Shown: positions 1 through 43,689 of the stretch, one piece after another
Numbering within the stretch: the first letter of the stretch is position 1
Layout: each line of letters begins with the position of its first letter
DNA from: a virus
Lineage: Duplodnaviria > Heunggongvirae > Uroviricota > Caudoviricetes
Reading direction: 5' to 3' (one strand)
DNA: 43,689 nt
IMG/VR virus record: IMGVR_UViG_3300045988_038444
Span: 1-43,689 of that record
Notes under the pieces: model-generated
Told to the model about the DNA's origin: nothing
Databases searched by the model: none
What the model saw: only the letters and a program-made list of their open reading frames with translations
Made by a program: the position numbers and the translations under genes

Positions 1-105
1 CCTGTAGCAGCGCCTACACCAGCGGCAGCACCTGTAGCAGCGCCTACACCAGCGGCAGCACCTGTAGCAGCGCCTACACCAGCGGCAGCACCTGTAGCAG
101 CGCCT
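1..105 (+). repeat. Tandem 30-bp repeat (cctgtagcagcgcctacaccagcggcagca, about 3.5 copies) inside a coding region; it encodes a (PVAAPTPAAA)n Pro/Ala-rich linker
   Basis: Exact tandem copies are visible at 1-30, 31-60 and 61-90, with a partial copy at 91-105; frame 1 stays open to the stop at 247-249. Confidence 0.85.
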
Positions 106-249
106 GTGAAGGTGATGACTGAAAAAGCAGGTGGTGTAACTTACGAACAGTTTATTGCGCAAGGTTGGAACGATGAACAACTGATCGCTAACGGTTATAT
201 GGTAATGACCACCCCGGCCCCGAATTTTCTCAACGGTAACGGTTACTGA
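1..249 (+). CDS. Partial CDS: C-terminal end of a repeat-linker protein (Pro/Ala linker followed by ...VKVMTEKAGGVTYEQFIAQGWNDEQLIANGYMVMTTPAPNFLNGNGY*). It probably continues the ORF that runs off the 3' end of the window
   Basis: Frame 1 is open from position 1 to TGA at 247-249. The Pro-rich PVA repeats resemble the VEPPVSR/APVAR repeats at 43500-43640. Confidence 0.45.
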   Translation, partial: PVAAPTPAAAPVAAPTPAAAPVAAPTPAAAPVAAPVKVMTEKAGGVTYEQFIAQGWNDEQLIANGYMVMTTPAPNFLNGNGY

Positions 250-16398: not shown

Positions 16399-17310
16399 AT
16401 GAGTAGGAAACGTTTAACCACAGAAGAGTTTATCACGCGTGCCCGTGAAGTTCATGGGCACAAATACGATTACTCACTAGTGGAGTATTTGAATTGGCGC
16501 ACACCTGTGAAAATCATCTGTCCTATACATGGAGTGTTTGAACAAATTCCTAATAATCATTTAAAAGGACGCAAGTGTTTATTCTGTGCAGGAAATCAAC
16601 AATCAAATACCAATGAATTTATCACAAGGGGGCGCGAAGTTCATGGGGGTAAGTATGGTTATTCGTTGGTGAAATATAAAGACTCTCGGACCAAAGTGAA
16701 AATCATTTGTCCAATACACGGAATGTTTGAACAACGTCCATATAGTCACTTGCAGCAAAAAGCAGGTTGCCCACAATGTGCTTGGGAACAATTGTCTGAA
16801 CAAAGACGTTTATCCGCCGAAGAATTCATTACTCGTGCTCGCGAAGTTCACGGGGACCGTTACGACTATTCGTTGGTGGAGTATGTTAACAATTCCACCC
16901 CTGTAAAAATTATTTGTTCAGAACACGGTGTGTTTGAACAGACACCGGGCAATCACACATTTATGAAAGCTGGCTGTCCCCAGTGCGCTGAAACAGGTTT
17001 TAATCCGTCAGAACCCGGCACGTTATATGTACTCGCTGATGATAAACAGTATCCCACTCTGATTAAAATTGGTATTACAAACGACTTAAAACAGCGACTA
17101 CGACAACTACAACGACGAACTCCGCATCTTGTGGTTAAACTTGTATCGTATCCGTTCCCACATGGCGCTGACGCTTACAAACTGGAACAAGAGGTACACA
17201 AGGTCTTTCACGAACTTAATGCGCGTCTCAAAGGCTTTGACGGTGCTACAGAGTGGTTTAAATACTCTCCTGCAATCCTCGATTACATAAATGAAAAAGC
17301 CCGGAACTAA
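16399..17310 (+). CDS. Homing-endonuclease-like protein HE-1: three N-terminal ~60-aa zinc-ribbon repeats + C-terminal T5orf172/GIY-YIG-like domain
   Basis: Three repeats of EEFITRAREVHGxKYDYSLVEY...KIICPIHGVFEQ...GCPQC. C-terminal GTLYVLADDKQYPTLIKIGITNDLKQRLRQLQRR. Inserted between the G/G-T chaperone genes and the tape measure. Confidence 0.6.
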   Translation: MSRKRLTTEEFITRAREVHGHKYDYSLVEYLNWRTPVKIICPIHGVFEQIPNNHLKGRKCLFCAGNQQSNTNEFITRGREVHGGKYGYSLVKYKDSRTKVKIICPIHGMFEQRPYSHLQQKAGCPQCAWEQLSEQRRLSAEEFITRAREVHGDRYDYSLVEYVNNSTPVKIICSEHGVFEQTPGNHTFMKAGCPQCAETGFNPSEPGTLYVLADDKQYPTLIKIGITNDLKQRLRQLQRRTPHLVVKLVSYPFPHGADAYKLEQEVHKVFHELNARLKGFDGATEWFKYSPAILDYINEKARN

Positions 17311-17330
17311 CCGGGCTTATGTTTATTTTT
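17297..17330 (+). terminator. Rho-independent terminator after HE-1
   Basis: Hairpin AAGCCCGGAACTAACCGGGCTT followed by a T-rich run. Confidence 0.6.
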
Positions 17331-18025
17331 CTTCATCTCGACAACACGTGCAGACCGCAATGCTGTTAACAATTTCCATAGGAACTGTACATCAACGTTG
17401 TACACCCGTGCGTAACGTTCACAGGCAACCCAATCACTATTTATCAAATCAAGATAAGCATACCAATAAAAAACAGCATCAGGTCGCAATTCAGGACGTT
17501 TCTGTACAACAACCGGAACAGATATACCACGTGCAGCCGCCCCTTGTGTAACCCAGTCCAGGTCGTCCCCGTCTGTCTTATCGTTCCACAAGAGGAAGTC
17601 GATCAGTTTTTTTCAATCTGTTTTTCCCATTCGTCCTGGAAGAATGCGGAATTAATTGCGAACTGAATAACACGGCTGTAGATCACCTGACCAAAACGTT
17701 CATCACTTAACAATTCAATAGCTTCTTCGACACTGAATGGTTCCGGTTTGTCATCTTCACCAATCAGTTTCCAGTCCAGCATAAGAACGTTAGCCACAAA
17801 CTTAACACCTTCTGGTGTATATTCCTGATTCCACAGTTTTTCAAAGAAGTTTTCAGACAACACACCGTTCTGTTTTACATAGTCCGCGACTGTTACGTTA
17901 TATACCTGGTTAGCGGTGTTCAGGTTCAACACGGTGATACTGAAATTTTCATTTAAAATCAGTTCAGCAGAAGACTTCAGCACCAGTGGAGAAAGTGCTT
18001 TTTTCAGATGGTCAAACTTTGACAT
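17307..18025 (-). CDS. Tail assembly chaperone G-T fusion via programmed -1 frameshift at AAAAAAC (~17606-17612)
   Basis: The -1 frame after the heptamer runs KKLIDFLLWNDKTDGDD... to 17307. This matches the canonical G/GT arrangement. Confidence 0.5.
17603..18025 (-). CDS. Tail assembly chaperone G
   Basis: 140-aa acidic protein upstream of the tape-measure region. It ends at a slippery A AAA AAC (plus strand 17606-17612) just before its stop. Confidence 0.55.
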   Translation of the reverse strand: MSKFDHLKKALSPLVLKSSAELILNENFSITVLNLNTANQVYNVTVADYVKQNGVLSENFFEKLWNQEYTPEGVKFVANVLMLDWKLIGEDDKPEPFSVEEAIELLSDERFGQVIYSRVIQFAINSAFFQDEWEKQIEKN

Positions 18026-18090
18026 GGTTTTTTTACCTTTTATGTAGTAGACGATTAGATAGTAATAGTTCTGTACAAATTACGCAAGAG

Positions 18091-18133
18091 ATTTAAAATA
18101 ATTCTTGACGAATTACATCTGTTAAGGTATCTT
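18091..18133 (+). promoter_or_regulatory. Early promoter copy P2 (-35 TTGACG 18105-18110, -10 TATCTT)
   Basis: Conserved element ATTTAAAATAATTCTTGACGAATTACA. Confidence 0.7.
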
Positions 18134-18165
18134 TAACTCAACGAAACGAACTGAGGGTAAGAGGG

Positions 18166-18789
18166 ATGGCGATTATTAACATGGGTTGGCATAGTTCTGT
18201 TTTTGAAGGAAATGTTAAACTCCTGGAAGGGGCATATAGTCCTATCCATCGTAATGATATTGGTGGCGATTACCCACCATCTTATTTTCTATACGAAACT
18301 GATCATGGGTGCTGTATCAAAGAACGTGAACGTAACGGTTACCATGATTCAGATTTTGAAATGTTAATATGGAACCCTGAAACAAAAAAGCGCTTCATGG
18401 TATACATTTGCAACTACCCGTGGTTGGTGTTATCCATGCTATGGTTCACGCCCAGATGCAACACCAGAAGTTTTAGAAGCATATAATATTTATGAACAAC
18501 AGCAAGAGGAAAAACGGCAACGTTATTGCAAAATAAAAAGAGTAAACAAGCAACGCAAACTGAACGCACAGTTTAGATTAATAGTACGTGAATTTGGTGT
18601 TGATCGCGAACAAGTTGAAAAACTTTATAAATTATATCACCCAGATATGTTCCCTGTATTTTGTAAACTTCTTAACAGTAATTTACGTTCTGATTTCCGT
18701 AAAAGTTTACGTAAACAACTAGTTGATTGGTTAAAAGGGAACGGTAAGTACGATAAACCATTTTCACCTAAACAAATTCAGTATTTATG
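18166..18789 (+). pseudogene. Split gene: N-terminal ORF 18166..18486 and a +1-frame continuation open 18368..18789, junction at an A6 run (18384-18389)
   Basis: Second frame open for ~140 codons with no ATG and ending 3 nt before the terminator; the two frames overlap only around gaaacAAAAAAgcgc. Confidence 0.4.
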
Positions 18790-18792
18790 AAT

Positions 18793-18819
18793 AAAAAAGC
18801 CCCGGTTTAACGCCGGGGC
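18793..18819 (-). terminator. Rho-independent terminator, strongest on the minus strand (after the major tail protein gene)
   Basis: Hairpin GCCCCGGTTTAACGCCGGGGC with an A6 run on the plus side, which is a U-run on the minus strand. Confidence 0.6.
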
Positions 18820-18839
18820 AACCACTACCAACCACCATG

Positions 18840-20297
18840 TCATGCTGTAGGCAGATATGGGAACAAGCTGAACCCAATCATAAAACCGATCGACTCTTCT
18901 TCGTGGGCGTTACCGCTAACAGTGACTTTCACTTTTTCGCCCGTCACAAGGTTTTTGGAACCGTCGCCCAGTGTCATCGCAGGAATGTTAACCACGATTG
19001 CACCGTCACCGTTTACCCCGGCAAGTTCGAAGTTGACTGTTGCGTTGTTACGGATCGCAGCCAGTACAGCACCGTCTGTCATCACCGTTTCAGTTTCCAT
19101 TGTGATTTCCAGGTTACCGATGTTGGTAAACGCAGCACCCATCACGCCCAGCACGTTTTCACCTGACACGTTGTTATTCACGGTGACAGTAACGTCTTTC
19201 AGGAACGTACTGAGTCCACTATCATCGATCCCGGTCAGTCGTACACGGTTCAGGTTCGTTACGGTGTTGTACGCTTCGTTAGCCACGAATTCAACATACC
19301 CGGAACCCGGCAGCGCGGTTTCTGACGGTGCTGATAAATCCTGTGCTACAAACGTCAGATCCATTGTCATTTTTTCAGTCAACGGTGCGTTGATCGTCAT
19401 CTGGTTTGCAGCTACAGCACGCGCATATTCATAAATAACAGGTGTCGTGTTGTAACGTACTTCCATTGTGTATTCAGTTTTAACGAACTCTGCAGAGTCA
19501 ACAGGAACGTTTCGAACAAAACTGGAAACAAATAAACGTACAGTTTTACCCGTACCTTCTTCAGTGGTGAATTCACTGTTAGCGAGAGTCAGAATATGAT
19601 CACCAACCATAGTCACACGGGCCATTTTACTGGTTACGGACTGTGTTAGACCATCAATATAAACATACTGTCCCGGTACTAAACCCAGTGTGGAAAAATC
19701 CAGGGTGGTAGACGTCAACTGACCATTACTGTTAACAGCGATTTCACCAGACGCTGCAGCATGCCCCACGAGATATAAACGAGCTTCAGCAGGCGGTGAC
19801 GCTTCGGCACTAAGCCCTGACACGTTGATAGCAGTAGTGGTACTATCAGCGCCTACAGTTTTCAAACCGTTGTTTGCAGCCAGTGTAAAACCTGTCGCAT
19901 AAACAAGAGCACCTTTAGGTAATGCCGCATCAAGAGTAGTAACGTTATAAGCATCAGCGCCAACACTGGTAACGTCAATATCAATTGCACCAGCACCGAC
20001 CCATTTACTATAAAGGAATCCGTCACCCCAGTAGCGGAACGTATCAAGTGTCAGGTCTGTCTGAAAGCCCGGTGCAACTTCAACGTTAGTTACCGTGCCT
20101 TTACGTGCAGATCGGTCCGTACTGATCGGTGTACGCTGAGTCTTTGTAATATCAGCACTGTAAGAACTGATTTCATTCGGTTGTTGAACCGTCCAGGGTG
20201 TACCAAAAACAGGTTCACAGACTTTTGCCACACTGAGTCGTGTTGCGTTTACATCAGTCGCAGGTGTTTGCGAACATTTAAAAATTGATTCAGCCAT
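18840..20297 (-). CDS. Major tail (tube) protein, 485 aa, with a C-terminal extra (Ig-like?) domain
   Basis: Abundant Thr/Val-rich beta protein at the position between the tail completion protein and the chaperones. Confidence 0.6.
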   Translation of the reverse strand: MAESIFKCSQTPATDVNATRLSVAKVCEPVFGTPWTVQQPNEISSYSADITKTQRTPISTDRSARKGTVTNVEVAPGFQTDLTLDTFRYWGDGFLYSKWVGAGAIDIDVTSVGADAYNVTTLDAALPKGALVYATGFTLAANNGLKTVGADSTTTAINVSGLSAEASPPAEARLYLVGHAAASGEIAVNSNGQLTSTTLDFSTLGLVPGQYVYIDGLTQSVTSKMARVTMVGDHILTLANSEFTTEEGTGKTVRLFVSSFVRNVPVDSAEFVKTEYTMEVRYNTTPVIYEYARAVAANQMTINAPLTEKMTMDLTFVAQDLSAPSETALPGSGYVEFVANEAYNTVTNLNRVRLTGIDDSGLSTFLKDVTVTVNNNVSGENVLGVMGAAFTNIGNLEITMETETVMTDGAVLAAIRNNATVNFELAGVNGDGAIVVNIPAMTLGDGSKNLVTGEKVKVTVSGNAHEEESIGFMIGFSLFPYLPTA

Positions 20298-21206: not shown

Positions 21207-22103
21207 ATGGGCGGTAAAAGACTAACCAAAGAACAACTAGAGCATAACATAAAAGATATTTGTCAATCAAAAAATTACAAATTTATAAAATGGAAAGACG
21301 GGTTTAAAAACAAAGAATCACGAATTATTTTATCTTGTGTTACACACGGGGAATGGGACACTAAATGTTATCATTTTTTGAATGGTTCTGGTTGTCCGAT
21401 CTGTGGTGGAACACGAACCACAAAAGGGTTAAGAATTGCACAGATTAAAGACAGTTTAACAAATTCTAAATCAAAGTTTATTAAATTTAAAACTAATTTT
21501 CAAAATGGAAATTCTGTTTGTTTGCTGAGCTGTATTGATCATGGTGGATGGGAGACAACAGTCAATAGACTAATCTTTACATCTGTTGATTGCCCGTTGT
21601 GTATAACGAATAGACAGAAAACTAAACAAGAACGAGAAATTGAAATAACAAATAGATGTAAAGAAACAGGGTTGTTTTTTAATAAGATATTCGACGAACA
21701 TCCGACATGGAAATCTAAAATATCATTAAAGTGTTCAACGCATGGTGATTTTGTTACAACAATTAATTCTTTTCTTAGTAAACAAAAAGGTTGTCCAAAC
21801 TGTAGTAAAACAGGGTTTAAAGCTGGTAAGTATGCAACACTTTATGTCTTGCGGTCCACATGCGGTCGTTACGTTAAAATAGGTATCAGTAATTGTGTAG
21901 AGCAAAGAATTAATACACTTCGTAGAAAAACACCATTTGATTTTCAAGTAATAGAAAAATTGAATGGACACGGGGCAACCATTCGTTCACTTGAAAAAGA
22001 TTTTCATTCTCATTTTGAATCTGCAGGATTAACCGGGTTCGATGGTTGTACAGAGTGGTTAAAATGGAATCCAAATATAACCACTCTGATACGGATGTTA
22101 TAG
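21207..22103 (+). CDS. Homing-endonuclease-like protein HE-2: three CxxHG...CPxC zinc ribbons + C-terminal T5orf172/GIY-YIG-like domain
   Basis: CVTHGEWDT..GCPICGG, CIDHGGWET..DCPLC and CSTHGDFVT..GCPNC. C-terminal ATLYVLRSTCGRYVKIGISNCVEQRINTLRRK...FDGCTEWLKWNPNITTLIRML. Start trimmed to ATG 21207. Confidence 0.6.
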   Translation: MGGKRLTKEQLEHNIKDICQSKNYKFIKWKDGFKNKESRIILSCVTHGEWDTKCYHFLNGSGCPICGGTRTTKGLRIAQIKDSLTNSKSKFIKFKTNFQNGNSVCLLSCIDHGGWETTVNRLIFTSVDCPLCITNRQKTKQEREIEITNRCKETGLFFNKIFDEHPTWKSKISLKCSTHGDFVTTINSFLSKQKGCPNCSKTGFKAGKYATLYVLRSTCGRYVKIGISNCVEQRINTLRRKTPFDFQVIEKLNGHGATIRSLEKDFHSHFESAGLTGFDGCTEWLKWNPNITTLIRML

Positions 22104-26568: not shown

Positions 26569-26978
26569 TATTCCACATCCTCATAATATGCAGTTCCACC
26601 GATACTATATCCCGTATATTCACCAGTCTGAAACTTTTTCAAAACTTCGTCATCAGTTATCAACGTACCAACAATGACGCCTGTCTGATCCAGTTTATCA
26701 ACCAGTCCAAAACTTGCTGCAATGTCTTCGGTCATCGGGAACGCAAACACAACTTTCCCAACAGGTTGTTGATTATGCATATTATCCATGATGCGCTGAT
26801 CAGAATTCATGAAGTCCAACCATGCTTTCAGAGTGACATCCTCGGGAAATTGCTCGTTGTCCGTGTCTGTGTAAATTTCTAACTGACCTGTCTCCTGATT
26901 ACGTTTTTTACAGATACTACCCCAACCGAATACCATACGTAGTGAGTTGTCAACCTTATTAACTTTTACGTTAATCAC
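26568..26978 (-). CDS. Hypothetical head-module protein (possible prohead protease, XkdF-like?)
   Basis: 136-aa protein between the HE fragment and the scaffold gene; the function call is weak. Confidence 0.3.
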   Translation of the reverse strand: MINVKVNKVDNSLRMVFGWGSICKKRNQETGQLEIYTDTDNEQFPEDVTLKAWLDFMNSDQRIMDNMHNQQPVGKVVFAFPMTEDIAASFGLVDKLDQTGVIVGTLITDDEVLKKFQTGEYTGYSIGGTAYYEDVE

Positions 26979-27385
26979 GGGGATTGTCCTCGTATTGTTT
27001 CAACATGACTAAATTCTAACATTTCGGATGAATAATTGCACTGGTGATACACGCTGTTTACAACGTTACCGAATATCTCAGAAAGATTCTTGATCGGTTC
27101 AACAGCAGTCGTTACTGGTTCAACAGCAGTCGTTACTGGTTCAACAGTAGTCGTTACCGGTTCAACAGTAGTCGTTACCGGTTCAACAGCAGTCGTTACT
27201 GGTTCAACAGCGTCCAGATGTTCAGCGACAACCTGGAAAAACACTGTGTTAGTTTCACGGTCAATAATAACCACTGTGCTGGAACTATCTTCAACAATGC
27301 TGAATGAGTAGTCGTAACGATCACCGTGAATTTTACGGGCGCGACGAATGAATTCGTCTGTAGCAACTCTGATGTTCGGATCCAT
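26975..27385 (-). CDS. Homing-endonuclease-related fragment: one EFIRRARKIHGDRYDYS module + (VEPVTTA)x6 repeat + short C-terminus; no nuclease domain
   Basis: DEFIRRARKIHGDRYDYSFS matches the HE-1 repeat. Start trimmed to ATG 27385 (AAGGG SD). Driven by the minus-strand promoter copy at 27416-27462. Confidence 0.5.
   Translation of the reverse strand: MDPNIRVATDEFIRRARKIHGDRYDYSFSIVEDSSSTVVIIDRETNTVFFQVVAEHLDAVEPVTTAVEPVTTTVEPVTTTVEPVTTAVEPVTTAVEPIKNLSEIFGNVVNSVYHQCNYSSEMLEFSHVETIRGQSP
27096..27215 (-). repeat. Tandem 21-bp repeat (ggttcaacagcagtcgttact, ~5.7 copies) encoding VEPVTTA heptads
   Basis: Copies at 27096, 27117, 27138, 27159 and 27180, plus a partial copy. Confidence 0.85.
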
Positions 27386-27415
27386 ACATTCAACCCTTCT
27401 TGTTCTCTTAACCAC

Positions 27416-27526: not shown

Positions 27527-27637
27527 ACTTATACTACTCTTCTATTTATCTATGTTTATTATGTTTTCTATAAAAAGATAACAAAAAGAATAAGATAGAG
27601 AGGGGTTGGTTAAAAAGTAAACATGACGAAATATATG
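27527..27637. repeat. Conserved ~105-bp intergenic element, copy A (core ttctataaaaagataacaaaaagaataagatagagaggggttggttaaaaagtaaacatgacgaaatatatg)
   Basis: About 90% identical to 42607-42713. Confidence 0.8.
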
Positions 27638-27740: not shown

Positions 27741-27783
27741 CTTTAAAATAATTCTTGACGGATTACACCGACGCAACTATCTT
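27741..27783 (+). promoter_or_regulatory. Early promoter copy P3 (-35 TTGACG 27755-27760, -10 TATCTT)
   Basis: CTTTAAAATAATTCTTGACGGATTACACCGACGCAACTATCTT. Confidence 0.7.
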
Positions 27784-27814
27784 GTGGTTAACAGGAAGAA
27801 AAAGGAGACATGCA

Positions 27815-28876: not shown

Positions 28877-29104
28877 TCGCTATGGGAATGAAACAAATAT
28901 GGGATGGTAAAACCTTCCTTCTGTTGGTTGTGAAGTATTGATCCATCTGGCAAGCATTAACAAGTGGGTGGCACGAACTGTTCAGGGTTATGAAATATGG
29001 CCTTCTGTTTATGAAAATGATACGGCACATCACAGGGTAAACATAAAATTTGAAGATAATGTTCGTCTGTTATGTGATGTGCGACCTCTTGACTGGCGTG
29101 AACC

Positions 29105-29178
29105 TGATTAACTTGGTTCGATGGCTGTACTGAGTGGTTAAAATGGAATCCAAATATAACCACTCTAATACGTATAAT
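29105..29178 (+). pseudogene. Remnant of a homing-endonuclease 3' end (~90% nt identity to the last 70 nt of HE-2; WFDGCTEWLKWNPNITTLIRIITG*)
   Basis: cttggttcgatggctgtactgagtggttaaaatggaatccaaatataaccactctaatacg versus HE-2 ccgggttcgatggttgtacagagtggttaaaatggaatccaaatataaccactctgatacg. Confidence 0.6.
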
Positions 29179-32556: not shown

Positions 32557-32901
32557 ATGTTATTCGCTATTTTATGGGTTCTTTTCTCTCTGATTATCGC
32601 GGGTGTTGCCAAACAAACGGGTCGCAACCCTGGTGCATGGTTCTTTATCGCATTTCTCACAAGTCCTGTGATCGGTGGTCTGATTCTGTTAATCGCATAT
32701 CTGTTTAACGGTAAGGTCGTAAGGGAACAACCGAAAGTGGTAACCACGGGGATGTTTAGTAACTACCTTGCAGCCTATAACTATGTTAATGAACATTACA
32801 CCATTGATACTGACTACCGGGCAGAAGCAGCCAGTGACCTGTTTAAGTATGCTACCTGTCGCGAGGACTGTGATAAACTGATCGCGAAGTACGTTAACTG
32901 A
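32557..32901 (+). CDS. Membrane protein (2 TM, 114 aa)
   Basis: MLFAILWVLFSLIIAGVA...WFFIAFLTSPVIGGLILLIAYLF; GGAGGA SD. Confidence 0.45.
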   Translation: MLFAILWVLFSLIIAGVAKQTGRNPGAWFFIAFLTSPVIGGLILLIAYLFNGKVVREQPKVVTTGMFSNYLAAYNYVNEHYTIDTDYRAEAASDLFKYATCREDCDKLIAKYVN

Positions 32902-32916
32902 CAGGAGAAAACTTAA

Positions 32917-33249
32917 ATGCGTTTTGAAATTCTTGAGCTTGTTAAATATGACAAGACTGCTGCTGAAATTCTGGTTGATGCAGTTGCTGACAACGAAGTG
33001 AAATTTAAACTACTTAACAAGGTCTGGAAATACATTGTAACCACGACTATTGTTGAGCAAGCATCACAGTTTAAAGAAGTTGTTGCTGATATGTACGCGT
33101 TCACTGGCGATGATGAGGTTAAACTACAACTGCTTGATAAAACGCTGGAACGTGCGATCAACAACAGTTATCCGTTACAGACTCGTATTCAGACTGCGGT
33201 TGATGAAGCGAGTAAATTACTGTCAATCGTGCAGCCTGAAACTAAGTAA
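32917..33249 (+). CDS. Hypothetical protein (110 aa)
   Basis: Track ORF with GGAGAA SD. Confidence 0.45.
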   Translation: MRFEILELVKYDKTAAEILVDAVADNEVKFKLLNKVWKYIVTTTIVEQASQFKEVVADMYAFTGDDEVKLQLLDKTLERAINNSYPLQTRIQTAVDEASKLLSIVQPETK

Positions 33250-33255
33250 AAATTA

Positions 33256-33283
33256 AGGGACCAGAAACGGTCCCTTTTTAATT
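33256..33283. terminator. Bidirectional rho-independent terminator between the converging + cassette and the portal gene
   Basis: Hairpin AGGGACCAGAAACGGTCCCT flanked by A/T runs on both sides. Confidence 0.7.
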
Positions 33284-34638
33284 CAGTCGTCAATAGACGG
33301 TAACCCATCCCCGGCTTTATCAATCCCCGTAATAGGTAGACCCGCCTCTTTATATACGTATTCCTGAAGGTCTGGATCCGGGAATACAGGCGCGCCAGCT
33401 TGTGCAAGTCGTGCAAGTGCAGTGGTCAACGTTTCGATACTGTCTTTACTGATCGACCCGGCGCGAATCGACGGGCGGTATTCATCAGGAAATGCGTTTA
33501 ACGACCATAACTGCGGTATCAACTGACGATTAACACATTCTACAATGCTGTCAATACGTGATTGCATTGCGCGGATCCATAATTCAGTACGACTACCCAG
33601 GTTAGCATTATTCCCGGTATTACCACCCGTTCCGAAAAACATGAAATCAGCCAGTAACGCACGGGCAATACTGGTATCCAGGCGTTTAATCGTCCGGTCA
33701 ATATCCACAGAACTGGTCTGATTAGGTGTAACGAATTCCAGTTTCACCTGTTGTTCACCACCATACGTGGTAACACCTGTTTCGTTATCGTAACCCGTGA
33801 TATACGGTTTAGAATAAATCACCAGTCCTGATTGTTCATTGCGTTTGATATTAGCGACGATGTTTTCATAGTTATCAATCATCGCCTGTGCTGCCTGACG
33901 TTGTTGTTCAGGAACGTTGGGGTCATTAGCCGCTTTCTTAATATCTGCGTTAACAGTAATTACCGGGAACCCTGTACCACGTTCGGCAAGTATGGATTCG
34001 ATTTCCATATTCACTTTTTTGTAGTACCACGGACGATAAGCTGTGCGCAGCAGTGATAAACCTTCCGGGTTACCTTTATTCGGACTTGAAATCAAATGAA
34101 GCGAACGGTCACGCGTGATTAACGTCGTTGTACCCTGGTTAGGTGAACGTTGATAAATACCACGAACATAACCTGTCGGTTCTTCAATGTCCCAGCCAGC
34201 AAGCGTTTCAGGTGCTACAGGAACCAGACGGGCAATACCCACCGTGCCATCATCAAGGTCTTTCACCCAGATGTCATACCAACCCCAGCCAAACACATCA
34301 ACGTCTGTCCATGTCTGAACGAACGCGGACCAGGTATCGTCCGGGAGTGCACCACGCGGATCACCCATTTTATTTTCAACAGCATCCTGTAACCATTCTG
34401 AATAACGAATAGCTTCTGGATCATCTTTGTCAGACGGGTCAAAAATCCACTGTACAGAACGATAAACGCTACTCATAGCGAATAACACACCGCCAATAGT
34501 TTCGTCGTTCTCAGCCATCTGACGCAGAATACGACGGCCTTGTTTACCGTTCAGCTTAGGAAGGAAATCGTCGTTTACCTGGTTGCCTGTTCGACTGTAC
34601 CCGGCAACGGCTAGTTGTTCGAATTGTTGATCAGCCAT
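33283..34638 (-). CDS. Portal protein (451 aa)
   Basis: Size, position downstream of TerL and upstream of head morphogenesis, and an acidic C-terminus. Confidence 0.7.
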   Translation of the reverse strand: MADQQFEQLAVAGYSRTGNQVNDDFLPKLNGKQGRRILRQMAENDETIGGVLFAMSSVYRSVQWIFDPSDKDDPEAIRYSEWLQDAVENKMGDPRGALPDDTWSAFVQTWTDVDVFGWGWYDIWVKDLDDGTVGIARLVPVAPETLAGWDIEEPTGYVRGIYQRSPNQGTTTLITRDRSLHLISSPNKGNPEGLSLLRTAYRPWYYKKVNMEIESILAERGTGFPVITVNADIKKAANDPNVPEQQRQAAQAMIDNYENIVANIKRNEQSGLVIYSKPYITGYDNETGVTTYGGEQQVKLEFVTPNQTSSVDIDRTIKRLDTSIARALLADFMFFGTGGNTGNNANLGSRTELWIRAMQSRIDSIVECVNRQLIPQLWSLNAFPDEYRPSIRAGSISKDSIETLTTALARLAQAGAPVFPDPDLQEYVYKEAGLPITGIDKAGDGLPSIDD

Positions 34639-34706: not shown

Positions 34707-34749
34707 TGTTAAAATAATTCTTGACGAATTGCAAACGTGCGATTATGCT
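34707..34749 (+). promoter_or_regulatory. Early promoter copy P6 (-35 TTGACG 34721-34726, -10 TATGCT)
   Basis: GTTAAAATAATTCTTGACGAATTGCA. Confidence 0.7.
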
Positions 34750-34780
34750 TTAGTCATCAAATGAACGAAGGGTGATAACT

Positions 34781-35092
34781 ATGAAACCGAATGAAAATAT
34801 TACACAACTGGATATTGCTTTTGGACCTAAAAACATTGCTGAATTTCTCCCGGCGATGGGTAGTATTCCGAAAGAATTTTTCGAAAATTCTAACCCGTGG
34901 AATCAGTGGGTCAGCAAATGGTTCTTCAACGGTCTGAAAGAATACGCAGTTGCTGTTGAAGGTGTGAACTTTAAAGATGCTCACGCGCATATCAAAGTGA
35001 TCCTGGGTAGTTTCGAACCTAAACACGAACATAAAATTGCCGGGTGTGCGTATCTCGCGTCAATGTGGTTTGTACCGGAGACAGTTAAATGA
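34781..35092 (+). CDS. Hypothetical protein (~103 aa)
   Basis: Start trimmed to ATG 34781 (AAGGGTGA SD). Confidence 0.45.
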   Translation: MKPNENITQLDIAFGPKNIAEFLPAMGSIPKEFFENSNPWNQWVSKWFFNGLKEYAVAVEGVNFKDAHAHIKVILGSFEPKHEHKIAGCAYLASMWFVPETVK

Positions 35093-35890: not shown

Positions 35891-35977
35891 TTATTATGGA
35901 ATACATGTACATTGCTTTCTCACTTCTGTTAATGATTGTTGTCGTTATTACAACTGAGAAAAAAAGAACAAGGTGTG

Positions 35978-36172
35978 ATGGGTTTAGCAGTTGCTCTGAT
36001 TCGTGTTCTTTCAATCATGTTGCTGGTAACCAGTTTTTCAATTGCTTTTGACATCGTGGAATTACAAAGCGATTATTACGGTTTTGTGAAACTTCAACAT
36101 CAGTTGACATACGCCGTCATATTCGGTTTAGGTTCTGTTAGCCTCGCTGTTCTTTCATCTTTCAGACATTGA
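35978..36172 (+). CDS. Small membrane protein (64 aa, 2 TM)
   Basis: Start trimmed to ATG 35978 (AAGGTG SD); ends 6 nt before the terminator. Confidence 0.4.
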   Translation: MGLAVALIRVLSIMLLVTSFSIAFDIVELQSDYYGFVKLQHQLTYAVIFGLGSVSLAVLSSFRH

Positions 36173-36198
36173 AAAAAAGCCCCGGACAGTTCCGGGGC
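36172..36198 (-). terminator. Rho-independent terminator (strong on the minus strand, after TerL)
   Basis: Minus strand GCCCCGGAACTGTCCGGGGC + U7. Confidence 0.7.
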
Positions 36199-41346: not shown

Positions 41347-41378
41347 TTCTTGACGGGTTGCACAAGGAAGTGTAATAT
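41336..41378 (+). promoter_or_regulatory. Early promoter copy P9 (-35 TTGACG 41350-41355, ext -10 TGtTAATAT)
   Basis: GTTTAAAATAATTCTTGACGGGTTGCA. Confidence 0.7.
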
Positions 41379-41412
41379 TACCTCATTGAAACGAATTATG
41401 AGGAACCGGAAA

Positions 41413-42606: not shown

Positions 42607-42713
42607 TACTACTTCTTCTTTATATCTATGTTTTCTATGTTATCTATAAAAAGATAATAAAAAGAATAAGATAGAGAAGGGTCGGTTAAAAAATAAACAT
42701 GACGAAATCTATG
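42607..42713. repeat. Conserved ~105-bp intergenic element, copy B
   Basis: About 90% identical to 27527-27637 (..tctataaaaagataataaaaagaataagatagagaagggtcggttaaaaaataaacatgacgaaatctatg). Confidence 0.8.
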
Positions 42714-42944: not shown

Positions 42945-43689
42945 ATGAAAAAGAACCTTTTAGACGAATTAATAGATTTAAAAGGCGGGGTACAAAACGC
43001 TGTTGAATACCTTAATCGTCGAGGTGTTAAGGTGACTGTTGGTCGTTACAACCAATGGTTAAGCGGTAGGTTTCATCCTAAATATGAAACGATCAGTATT
43101 ATTCTTGAAGAGATTACTGACTTCACACTGTCACCCTTGCCAGTACAACATTCTGACGAAAACATTGTTCTTAAACACACAATACCGGTTACCGAACTGC
43201 GTCAGAAATTACCACACAGACGTTTTGCTAATAACTACTGGCAACGTGTCAGATACGTTGATTCACAGATCCTGGAAGCTGTTCACGGTCACGACGTGTG
43301 GACACGGTTTGAGGCGATGTGTGGTAATTTTGAATGTGCAAGATATGTGCTACGCAGAAATTTAAACGAACACACAATTACTGACAGTTGGATTCAAAAT
43401 GGTTTGCGCCGGGGATGGATCCCGGAATGTGTAAACGTAATGGTCGATTTGCTTGAAAAATACGAAGGCACCGGGACACCGTTTAACGTAATGGTTTGTG
43501 AACCACCTGTATCACGAGTGGAACCACCTGTATCACGAGTGGAAGCACCTGTATCACGAGTGGAACCACCTGTATCACGAGTGGAAGCACCTGTAGCACG
43601 AGTTGAAGCACCTGTAGCACGATTTGAACCGCCTGTAGTCGATGTCAGCGATTTGAAGGAGAAAATCAGACTGTATGCGTTATCACACA
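42945..43689 (+). CDS. Partial CDS (N-terminal 248 aa; no stop inside the window): HTH-like N-terminal region, then a (VEPPVSR/VEAPVAR)n repeat linker; probably continues in the partial ORF at 1..249
   Basis: ATG 42945; the frame is open to the window end; MKKNLLDELIDLKGGVQNAVEYLNRRGVKVTVGRYNQWLSGRF... Confidence 0.5.
   Translation, partial: MKKNLLDELIDLKGGVQNAVEYLNRRGVKVTVGRYNQWLSGRFHPKYETISIILEEITDFTLSPLPVQHSDENIVLKHTIPVTELRQKLPHRRFANNYWQRVRYVDSQILEAVHGHDVWTRFEAMCGNFECARYVLRRNLNEHTITDSWIQNGLRRGWIPECVNVMVDLLEKYEGTGTPFNVMVCEPPVSRVEPPVSRVEAPVSRVEPPVSRVEAPVARVEAPVARFEPPVVDVSDLKEKIRLYALSH
43500..43640 (+). repeat. Tandem 21-bp repeat (gaaccacctgtatcacgagtg, ~6.7 copies with drift) inside coding sequence
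   Basis: Copies at 43500, 43521, 43542, 43563, 43584 and 43605, plus a partial copy. Confidence 0.85.

What the first reader, a model, noticed from the sequence alone, without database searches (positions are those of the whole stretch)
18166..18789. Gene split by a frame change at an A6 run; second instance at an A7 run (35950-35960)
Frame A (18166-18486) and frame B (open 18368-18789, ending exactly at the terminator) overlap around gaaacAAAAAAgcgc, so a +1 shift or a 1-nt deletion fuses them into a ~205-aa protein. Similarly, the TM-helix ORF at 35896 (MEYMYIAFSLLLMIVVVITTEKK) meets the membrane-protein ORF 35978-36172 at gagAAAAAAAgaac. This is either a homopolymer sequencing error, recent pseudogenisation, or programmed transcriptional or translational slippage in cassette genes.
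Basis: seen in the sequence. Interest (0 to 1): 0.5.

Follow-up and report, generated by a model that had tools for sequence, protein, structure and literature searches.

The report
Recent A-run frameshift knockouts in phage genes

Summary
The window is a 9NA/Sashavirus-like phage contig.

- **Site 1 (18166-18790):** the gene equals the intact 207-aa gene of Sasha, Solent and 23 metagenomic contigs at all 624 other positions. It differs only in having A6 instead of A5.
- **Site 2 (35896-36172):** the gene equals the intact 91-aa membrane-protein gene except for A7 instead of A6. The run is at 35959-35965, not 35951-57.
- **Third case, found here (28882-29111):** A4 instead of A5 in a 76-aa gene.

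More distant orthologues have no run at sites 1 and 2 (ACAAT, AAGAAA). They are always a single ORF, so there is no conserved recoding signal. The frame needed to rejoin is +1, not the -1 that the heptamers would favour. The runs are also shorter than those known to give useful transcriptional slippage. By contrast, the genuine -1 site of the neighbouring tail-chaperone gene is A7 in 15 of 15 genomes.

Sequencing error is unlikely. A7 recurs in a distinct strain from an unrelated run. All three alleles are reproduced by JGI, Logan and ENA assemblies. No structural or replication gene is broken.

Both gene families show other natural knockouts. Verdict: recent frameshift pseudogenes in dispensable early genes. 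This is ordinary and of low interest.

The parts
18166..18790 (+). Frameshifted copy (625 nt) of a 207-aa accessory gene (phrog_30881, function unknown), sitting in the variable cassette slot between the tail-tube and tail-chaperone genes
   Evidence: One intact 624-nt ORF in Sasha, Solent and VLCpiS10a. It is identical to 10 of 10 metagenomic A5 alleles except for one A. The slot is empty or holds other genes in other relatives.
18384..18389 (+). A6 run, a +1 A relative to the ancestral A5. It shifts the frame at codon 74, just upstream of the invariant FATTRGW-YPC...DAT-EV core.
   Evidence: Alignment A1; L042 and L047-L056 all have A5; family alignment A5. The downstream frame has no start codon before 18647.
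35896..36172 (+). Frameshifted copy (277 nt) of a 91-aa, three-TM membrane-protein gene (phrog_15669, function unknown)
   Evidence: Intact 276-nt ORF in 9 deposited relatives, 4 IMG/VR contigs, 8 ENA/Logan contigs and 2 further metagenome contigs. The three-TM description comes from the Sasha and Solent annotations.
35959..35965 (+). A7 run, a +1 A relative to the ancestral A6 (AAGAAA in 9NA and SP069). It shifts the frame after codon 23, between TM1 and TM2.
   Evidence: Alignments A2 and A3. The same A7 occurs in L030 (SRR17681049), a distinct strain.
28882..29111 (+). Third frameshifted gene, not in the finding: the homologue of the 76-aa gene AVIO78A_040 / PJ16_037 / Bas82_0026 / PDP46_0033
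   Evidence: Protein-level frame-split scan, ORF list and alignment A6.
28909..28912 (+). A4 run, a -1 A relative to A5 in all four relatives. It shifts the frame at codon 10, with a stop at 28939-28941.
   Evidence: The same A4 appears in Logan SRR2565813 and in two ENA analyses, all 100% identical to the window.
18092..18154 (+). Copy of an 8-copy promoter-like element (TTTAAAATAATTCTTGAC...) directly upstream of the site 1 gene. Other copies at 27742-27804 and 34708-34770 head the plus-strand gene clusters that contain the other two broken genes.
   Evidence: Repeat family D1. The -35/-10-like match at 18105-18133 coincides with it.

Best explanation
These are genuine, very recent loss-of-function frameshift mutations, meaning DNA-level slippage at short A-runs during phage replication. 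They lie in three small, dispensable, early-type accessory genes of one Sashavirus-like lineage.

Shown: each lesion is a single-base change in the length of an A-run relative to otherwise identical intact alleles. The ancestral and overwhelmingly common state is one ORF. One lesion is inherited by two distinct strains.

Inferred: the products are non-functional. Site 1 yields a 106-aa fragment lacking the conserved core, and no start codon is available for the remainder. Site 2 yields TM1 plus 28 out-of-frame residues; a 64-aa two-TM fragment could possibly initiate at ATG 35978. Site 3 yields a 19-aa peptide. The phage tolerates the losses because the genes are non-essential. Any full-length protein would come only from background, non-programmed slippage at a low, unmeasured level.
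For: (1) Single-step lesions. Site 1 differs from L042 and from 10 of 10 P0057-encoding contigs only by A6 versus A5. The site 2 coding sequence differs from L028, L031 and L033 only by A7 versus A6. Site 3 has A4 against A5 in 4 of 4 relatives.

(2) One ORF is ancestral. The site 1 family comprises 37 clusters, mostly about 200-220 aa, most with 100% coverage down to 37% identity. The site 2 family is 91 aa in 14 of 15 clusters. The intact 91-aa P0068 sits on 296 contigs.

(3) The alleles are real rather than artefacts. A7 is present in L030 from a different run. L030 differs from the window by 72 substitutions, 69 of them in the portal region, and shares an identical 3,241-nt block around A7. 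A6, A7 and A4 are reproduced at 100% identity in JGI, Logan (SRR2565813) and ENA (ERZ27304563, ERZ27304585) assemblies. No other private homopolymer indel exists among 46 runs of 6 nt or more. No structural or replication ORF is frame-split.

(4) The genes are dispensable. The site 1 slot is empty or differently filled in many relatives. Independent natural knockouts exist: an A7-to-A6 change at another run of the site 1 family on two backgrounds (L040, L057), a homing-endonuclease insertion in the site 2 gene (L059), and a 7-nt deletion in AVIO78A.
Against: Raw reads and the sequencing platform were not inspected, so sites 1 and 3 are seen in only one strain and possibly one study. Three A-run frameshifts in a single 43.7-kb contig is a lot for neutral decay, given that the broken genes show no other substitution. 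The argument from all three hitting non-core genes is weak (P about 0.09-0.12 under random placement). Loss of function is inferred and was not measured.
Confidence: 0.75

Rival explanations
1. Homopolymer sequencing or assembly error: the phage really has A5, A6 and A5, and the genes are intact.
For: All three lesions are 1-nt length changes in A-runs, the classic error signature. Sites 1 and 3 are seen only in contigs 100% identical to the window. Those contigs may derive from one sample or study. Three such lesions in one contig is suspicious.
Against: A7 is shared with a distinct strain from an unrelated run. Three independent pipelines give the same run lengths, and two different ENA analyses carry A4. 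None of the other 46 runs of 6 nt or more differs privately from relatives, and none of the roughly 25 such runs in core genes is broken. Lesions of the same kind occur in other lineages of the same gene family.
Confidence: 0.12
2. Programmed recoding: the split genes are expressed as full-length proteins by programmed +1 ribosomal frameshifting or transcriptional slippage at the A-runs.
For: The insertion creates zero-frame A_AAA_AAG (site 1) and A_AAA_AAA (site 2), both known slippery motifs. A +1 re-pairing of tRNA-Lys at site 1 would give exactly the wild-type sequence ETKSASW. Low-level adventitious slippage at A-runs is documented (PMC5009743, PMC6260861).
Against: No orthologue has the split architecture, and more distant ones lack the run altogether. 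Those heptamers promote -1 shifts, and the -1 frame at site 1 ends after 31 codons, whereas +1 is needed. There is no stop or rare codon plus Shine-Dalgarno arrangement of the prfB type. Runs of 4-7 A are below the roughly 8-9 nt used or selected against in bacteria (PMC1088944). E. coli RNAP needs at least 7 T 'and even more' A (PMC6260861). No ORF in the window matches a phage RNA polymerase. The real programmed site in the same window is conserved as A7 in 15 of 15 genomes.
Confidence: 0.03
3. Adaptive or switch-like inactivation: the A-runs act as mutational on/off switches, or loss of these early accessory proteins is positively selected on some hosts, for example to escape a defence system that senses them.
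For: There are three knockouts in one lineage with no other change in the genes. A-run frameshifts recur in the site 1 family on three backgrounds. The A7 allele persists across two mosaic strains. All three genes sit in units headed by the same promoter-like element.
Against: The tracts (4-7 nt) are far shorter than typical contingency loci. Intact alleles dominate: 23 contigs against 3 for the identical site 1 allele, and 296 contigs for the commonest intact site 2 protein. No function or defence link was found. Relaxed selection plus hypermutable runs explains the same data.
Confidence: 0.1

Closest known systems
Frameshift pseudogenes at mononucleotide runs (replication-slippage indels) in dispensable phage accessory ('moron'-type) genes
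   Same: A single-base change in the length of a short A-run, with an intact single ORF in close relatives. The gene lies in a variable slot or cluster, and there are other independent knockouts of the same gene in nature.
   Different: Nothing essential differs. The only unusual point is three such lesions in one 43.7-kb contig.
Programmed -1 ribosomal frameshift of tail assembly chaperones (lambda G/GT type), present in this same window at 17607-17613 (minus strand, GA_A_AAA_AAC_TGA)
   Same: An A7 run with two overlapping reading frames.
   Different: The chaperone site has a conserved run length (15 of 15 genomes), both frames are conserved, and the shift direction is -1. Sites 1-3 are private to one lineage, need +1 (sites 1 and 2), and orthologues are unsplit.
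E. coli dnaX A_AAA_AAG -1 frameshift site
   Same: Site 1 reads A_AAA_AAG in the zero frame.
   Different: The motif exists only because of the extra A. The -1 frame is a 31-codon dead end. No conserved stimulators were sought or expected, because orthologues lack the motif.
Rescue of frameshifted genes by transcriptional slippage at long A/T runs (Shigella mxiE with a run of U/T residues, Thermus dnaX A9, IS elements A8-A9, endosymbiont poly-A genes, Citrobacter tssM; PMC1088944, PMC4256274, PMC3017870)
   Same: A disrupted ORF with a sense-strand A-run at the junction.
   Different: The runs here are 4, 6 and 7 nt against at least 8-9. There is no conservation of the disrupted form. Transcription is presumably by host RNAP, which slips poorly on A-runs of 7 nt or fewer (PMC6260861).

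Membership tests
Frameshift pseudogene (recent loss-of-function allele) | Orthologues encode one uninterrupted ORF collinear with both fragments | tested here: met
Frameshift pseudogene (recent loss-of-function allele) | The truncated product lacks conserved or essential parts of the protein, and the remainder has no independent start | tested here: met
   At site 1 the break is upstream of all core invariant residues, and there is no start codon in the downstream frame before 18647. At site 3 only a 19-aa peptide results. At site 2 the result is less clear, because an internal GTG/ATG at 35975/35978 could give a two-TM fragment.
Frameshift pseudogene (recent loss-of-function allele) | The lesion is present in the biological DNA, not only in the assembly | tested here: inconclusive
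   Site 2: effectively met, because the same allele is found in a distinct strain from another run. Sites 1 and 3: the alleles are reproduced in 3-4 assemblies that are 100% identical to the window, but reads and platform were not inspected.
Programmed -1 ribosomal frameshifting | X_XXY_YYZ slippery heptamer in the zero frame | tested here: met
   A_AAA_AAG at site 1 and A_AAA_AAA at site 2, by direct reading. Both motifs are created only by the extra A.
Programmed -1 ribosomal frameshifting | The -1 frame carries the conserved downstream coding sequence | tested here: not met
   The conserved frame is +1. The -1 frame at site 1 stops after 31 codons.
Programmed -1 ribosomal frameshifting | Slippery site and two-frame architecture conserved among orthologues | tested here: not met
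   No orthologue is split. The run is ACAAT in VLCpiS10a and AAGAAA in 9NA and SP069. Contrast the chaperone site, conserved in 15 of 15 genomes.
Programmed transcriptional slippage | Homopolymer long enough for efficient RNAP slippage (about 8-9 A/T or more in bacteria) | tested here: not met
   The runs are 6, 7 and 4 nt. Thresholds are taken from PMC1088944 and PMC6260861.
Programmed transcriptional slippage | Heterogeneous mRNA run lengths and a trans-frame protein observed | not testable with these tools
   This needs RNA-seq or mass spectrometry of infected cells.
Programmed +1 ribosomal frameshifting (prfB type) | Slow-to-decode or stop codon in the A site, plus an upstream Shine-Dalgarno stimulator | tested here: not met
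   Site 1 reads GAA ACA AAA AAG CGC and site 2 reads GAG AAA AAA AGA ACA. There is no stop codon at the shift site and no SD-like element immediately upstream (inspection only).
Phase-variable contingency locus | Long, hypermutable tract with ON and OFF lengths co-existing in one population | tested here: inconclusive
   The tracts are short (4-7 nt). ON and OFF alleles exist between strains. Within-population polymorphism cannot be tested without reads.
phrog_30881 / phrog_15669 (phage protein families of unknown function) | Full-length match of the intact orthologue's protein to the family profile | tested here: met
   E = 1.7e-152 over 207/207 positions and E = 1.3e-50 over 91/91 positions, using the intact Sasha and Solent orthologues as queries.

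The most novel reading that the evidence does not exclude
The short A-runs in these early accessory genes serve as cheap, reversible mutational switches, or loss of these proteins is positively selected on particular hosts (for example because they trigger a host defence). That would explain three simultaneous knockouts in one lineage, recurrent A-run frameshifts in phrog_30881 on three genetic backgrounds, and persistence of the A7 allele across mosaic strains.
Probability: 0.1. Interest if true: 0.5.

Novelty: already known. Interest (0 to 1): 0.17.

Why it matters
The main value is practical. These three loci should be annotated as frameshifted or disrupted genes, not as pairs of small ORFs and not as recoding sites. 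The genuine recoding site of this genome is the tail-chaperone A7 run. A secondary point is that natural knockouts mark phrog_30881, phrog_15669 and the 76-aa gene as dispensable for lytic growth. They also mark them as repeatedly lost, which is a modest lead for anyone studying what these widespread unknown early genes do.

Tried and rejected
- **Compensatory new start:** the idea was that ATG 35978 (Ile to Met versus isolate genomes) is a compensatory new start. Rejected, because the same ATG is present in the intact metagenomic alleles.
- **Run-length scans for site 1:** IMG/VR and the JGI metagenome collection both returned nothing.
- **Literature search for SRR2565813:** no papers, so sample and platform remain unidentified.
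- **Look-ups of site 2 fragments by exact product:** the 51-, 64- and 78-aa products were not on record. This was solved through the neighbouring gene.
- **Statistical argument:** the case that random errors would have hit core genes gives only P about 0.1, which is not decisive.
- **Other census signals dismissed:** 4529, 41376-41389, 18028-18034, 23829-34, 22928-34, 30138-43, 33248-52 and 34877-81 were each dismissed for one or more of these reasons: alignment-edge effect, non-coding position, or private to a relative rather than to the window.

Full report
**What the window is.** BLAST against deposited phage genomes shows that the window is a 9NA/Sashavirus-like siphovirus. It is about 95% identical to Escherichia phages PJ16, AVIO78A, PDP46 and Bas82 and to Sashavirus 536P12 and BDX09P1. 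It is about 89-93% identical to Salmonella phages Sasha, Sergei and Solent. It is reverse-complemented relative to those records. The protein-cluster look-up shows that the window is itself a 43,689-nt JGI/IMG metagenome contig.

**Checking the observation.** Two coordinates need correction. The downstream frame of site 1 ends with TGA at 18788-18790, so the split gene spans 625 nt. The A7 run of site 2 lies at 35959-35965, not 35951-35957.

**Site 1.** Sasha gp43, Solent_055 and Klebsiella phage VLCpiS10a S10a_00089 are each one intact 624-nt ORF of 207 aa at the same position, between the tail-tube and tail-assembly-chaperone genes and on the opposite strand.

- The alignment shows A5 in Sasha and Solent, ACAAT (no run) in VLCpiS10a, and A6 only in the window.
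- Metagenomic contig L042 and ten further contigs encoding P0057 have A5 and zero other differences over 624 nt. P0057 is exactly the repaired window protein and is carried on 23 contigs.
- The family (phrog_30881, matched 207/207) comprises 37 clusters, mostly about 200-220 aa. Most cover 100% of the query, down to 37% identity, and they include Burkholderia phage BcepSauron_016.
- The break at codon 74 is immediately upstream of the invariant FATTRGW-YPC...DAT-EV core and of all C-terminal invariant residues.
- The downstream frame has no ATG, GTG or TTG before 18647, so the conserved part cannot be translated on its own.

**Site 2.** Nine deposited relatives annotate one 276-nt gene of 91 aa with three TM segments at this position.

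- The window has A7. Seven relatives have A6, and 9NA and SP069 have AAGAAA.
- Four IMG/VR contigs, eight ENA/Logan contigs and two further metagenome contigs all have A6.
- Several of these are identical to the window across the coding sequence apart from the run, including the internal ATG at 35978. That ATG is therefore not a compensatory change.
- The family (phrog_15669, matched 91/91) is 91 aa in 14 of 15 clusters. The commonest intact protein is on 296 contigs.

**A third case.** A protein-level scan for relatives' ORFs that are split across frames in the window recovered sites 1 and 2 and one more. At 28882-29111 lies the homologue of a conserved 76-aa gene (AVIO78A_040, PJ16_037, Bas82_0026, PDP46_0033). 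The window has A4 at 28909-28912 where all four relatives have A5. This gives a 19-aa peptide, with the rest of the gene in another frame. No structural, lysis or replication gene is split. A DNA-level census against seven relatives found no other private homopolymer indel among 46 runs of 6 nt or more.

**Real allele or sequencing error?**

- The 106-aa truncated product is on record from JGI, Logan (SRR2565813) and ENA (ERZ27304563). Those contigs are 100% identical to the window and carry A6.
- The A4 allele is likewise present in SRR2565813 and in two different ENA analyses, ERZ27304563 and ERZ27304585.
- The decisive case is A7. It is also present in L030, from a different run (SRR17681049). 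That phage differs from the window by 72 substitutions over 6.2 kb. Of these, 69 lie in the portal region, and a 3,241-nt block around A7 is identical.
- A7 is therefore an inherited allele carried by at least two viable mosaic strains.
- For sites 1 and 3 I could not inspect reads or identify the platform. A residual chance of artefact remains, which I put at about 0.12.
- The fact that all three lesions avoid the core genes is only weak evidence (P about 0.1 under random placement).

**Programmed recoding?** The evidence is against it.

1. No orthologue has the split form, and the run is absent in the more distant ones.
2. The extra A creates A_AAA_AAG and A_AAA_AAA in the zero frame. These motifs promote -1 shifts, whereas the conserved frame is +1. 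The -1 frame at site 1 terminates after 31 codons.
3. There is no prfB-like context for +1 shifting (by inspection).
4. Runs of 4-7 A are shorter than those that bacteria select against or exploit (about 9 nt, sometimes 8; PMC1088944). E. coli RNAP needs at least 7 T 'and even more adenine residues' to bypass an indel (PMC6260861). None of the window's ORFs matches a phage RNA polymerase in the relatives' annotations.
5. The window contains a genuine programmed site for comparison. This is the tail-assembly-chaperone -1 site GA_A_AAA_AAC_TGA (17607-17613, minus strand). It is A7 in all 15 genomes examined, and both of its frames are conserved.

Background, non-programmed slippage may yield traces of full-length protein. 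That is inference from general knowledge (PMC5009743), not something shown here.

**Why these genes?** They appear dispensable and are repeatedly lost.

- The slot holding the site 1 gene is empty in many relatives and holds unrelated 87-aa or other small genes in others.
- In a diverged allele class of the same family, L040 differs from intact L041 only by A7 to A6 at a different run, giving 125 aa.
- L057 (NCBI GCA_021031555.1, also seen in Logan ERR5751948) carries the same change on a background with about 14 substitutions.
- The site 2 gene is interrupted by a DUF723 homing-endonuclease insertion in L059 and related contigs. It also carries a 7-nt deletion in AVIO78A.
- All three broken genes in the window lie in plus-strand units headed by copies of an 8-copy promoter-like element, TTTAAAATAATTCTTGAC....
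- I read these as early accessory genes, but no expression-timing data were examined. Their functions remain unknown.

**Verdict.** The finding is a correct observation of ordinary biology. It shows very recent frameshift inactivation of dispensable accessory genes by slippage at short A-runs (confidence about 0.75). It is not programmed recoding (about 0.03) and probably not sequencing error (about 0.12). An adaptive or switch-like reading cannot be excluded (about 0.1) but is not needed to explain the data. Novelty: already known. Interest: low.

Noticed in passing
A conserved 76-aa gene is broken at codon 10 by A5 to A4. The allele is private to this strain and is reproduced in three other assemblies.
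   Followed up: yes
window 17603-17620, minus strand (T7 on the plus strand at 17607-17613): The genuine programmed -1 frameshift site of the tail assembly chaperone (GA_A_AAA_AAC_TGA, joining ORFs 17603-18025 and 17307-17591). It is A7 in 15 of 15 related genomes.
   Followed up: yes
window 16146, 18092, 27742, 32485, 34708, 38127, 39489, 41337 (each about 63 nt, plus strand): Eight copies of a promoter-like element, TTTAAAATAATTCTTGAC(G/A)..., each heading a plus-strand (non-structural) gene or cluster. It is probably the phage's early-promoter family with an UP-like A/T tract.
   Followed up: partly
window 18030-18840; loci L037-L046: The interval between the tail-tube and chaperone genes is a variable cassette slot. 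It is empty, or holds an 87-aa gene, a 55-aa gene, or the 207-aa gene, depending on the phage.
   Followed up: partly
L059:1001-2207 (ENA ERZ27241554); window 16399-17310: A DUF723-type homing-endonuclease gene is inserted inside the site 2 membrane-protein gene in another lineage. The window carries a related 303-aa endonuclease (DUF723, T5orf172 and MUG113 domains) at 16399-17310, which shows three internal sequence repeats.
   Followed up: partly
window 32858-34525 compared with L030: 69 of the 72 differences between the window and the SRR17681049 strain cluster within 32858-34525 (mostly in the portal gene), next to 3.2 kb of identity. This is evidence of mosaic recombination within the portal gene.
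   Followed up: partly
window 27067-27231 (21-nt tandem units; 42-nt insertion at about 27155-27200 relative to PDP46, 536P12 and BDX09P1): A 21-nt in-frame tandem repeat array inside the minus-strand ORF 26975-27415, with copy-number variation between relatives. Similar 21-nt and 30-nt tandem arrays sit at both ends of the window (1-117 and 43479-43646).
   Followed up: no
window 27538-27637 and 42614-42713; 22027-22096 and 29106-29175: Two pairs of dispersed direct repeats at 90-91% identity (100 nt and 70 nt). The first pair lies in A/T-rich regions; the second pair overlaps ORF ends. Their function was not examined.
   Followed up: no
window 34877-34881 compared with Sashavirus 536P12 (OZ035768.1): 536P12 has its own 1-nt difference at this T5 run, which splits its copy of the 106-aa gene (window 34772-35092). 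This is a frameshift or sequencing error in that record, not in the window.
   Followed up: partly
P0084 (ENA, 554-nt contig): An odd 175-aa read-through product covering the site 2 gene region, with TGA read as TGG at two places and a shorter A-run. It looks like an error-rich or hypermutated short contig.
   Followed up: no
window 18799-18819 and 36179-36198: Both hairpin terminators flanking the finding's genes have their T-tails on the minus strand. They primarily terminate the convergent tail-tube and TerL transcripts. On the plus strand the A-run precedes the stem.
   Followed up: partly
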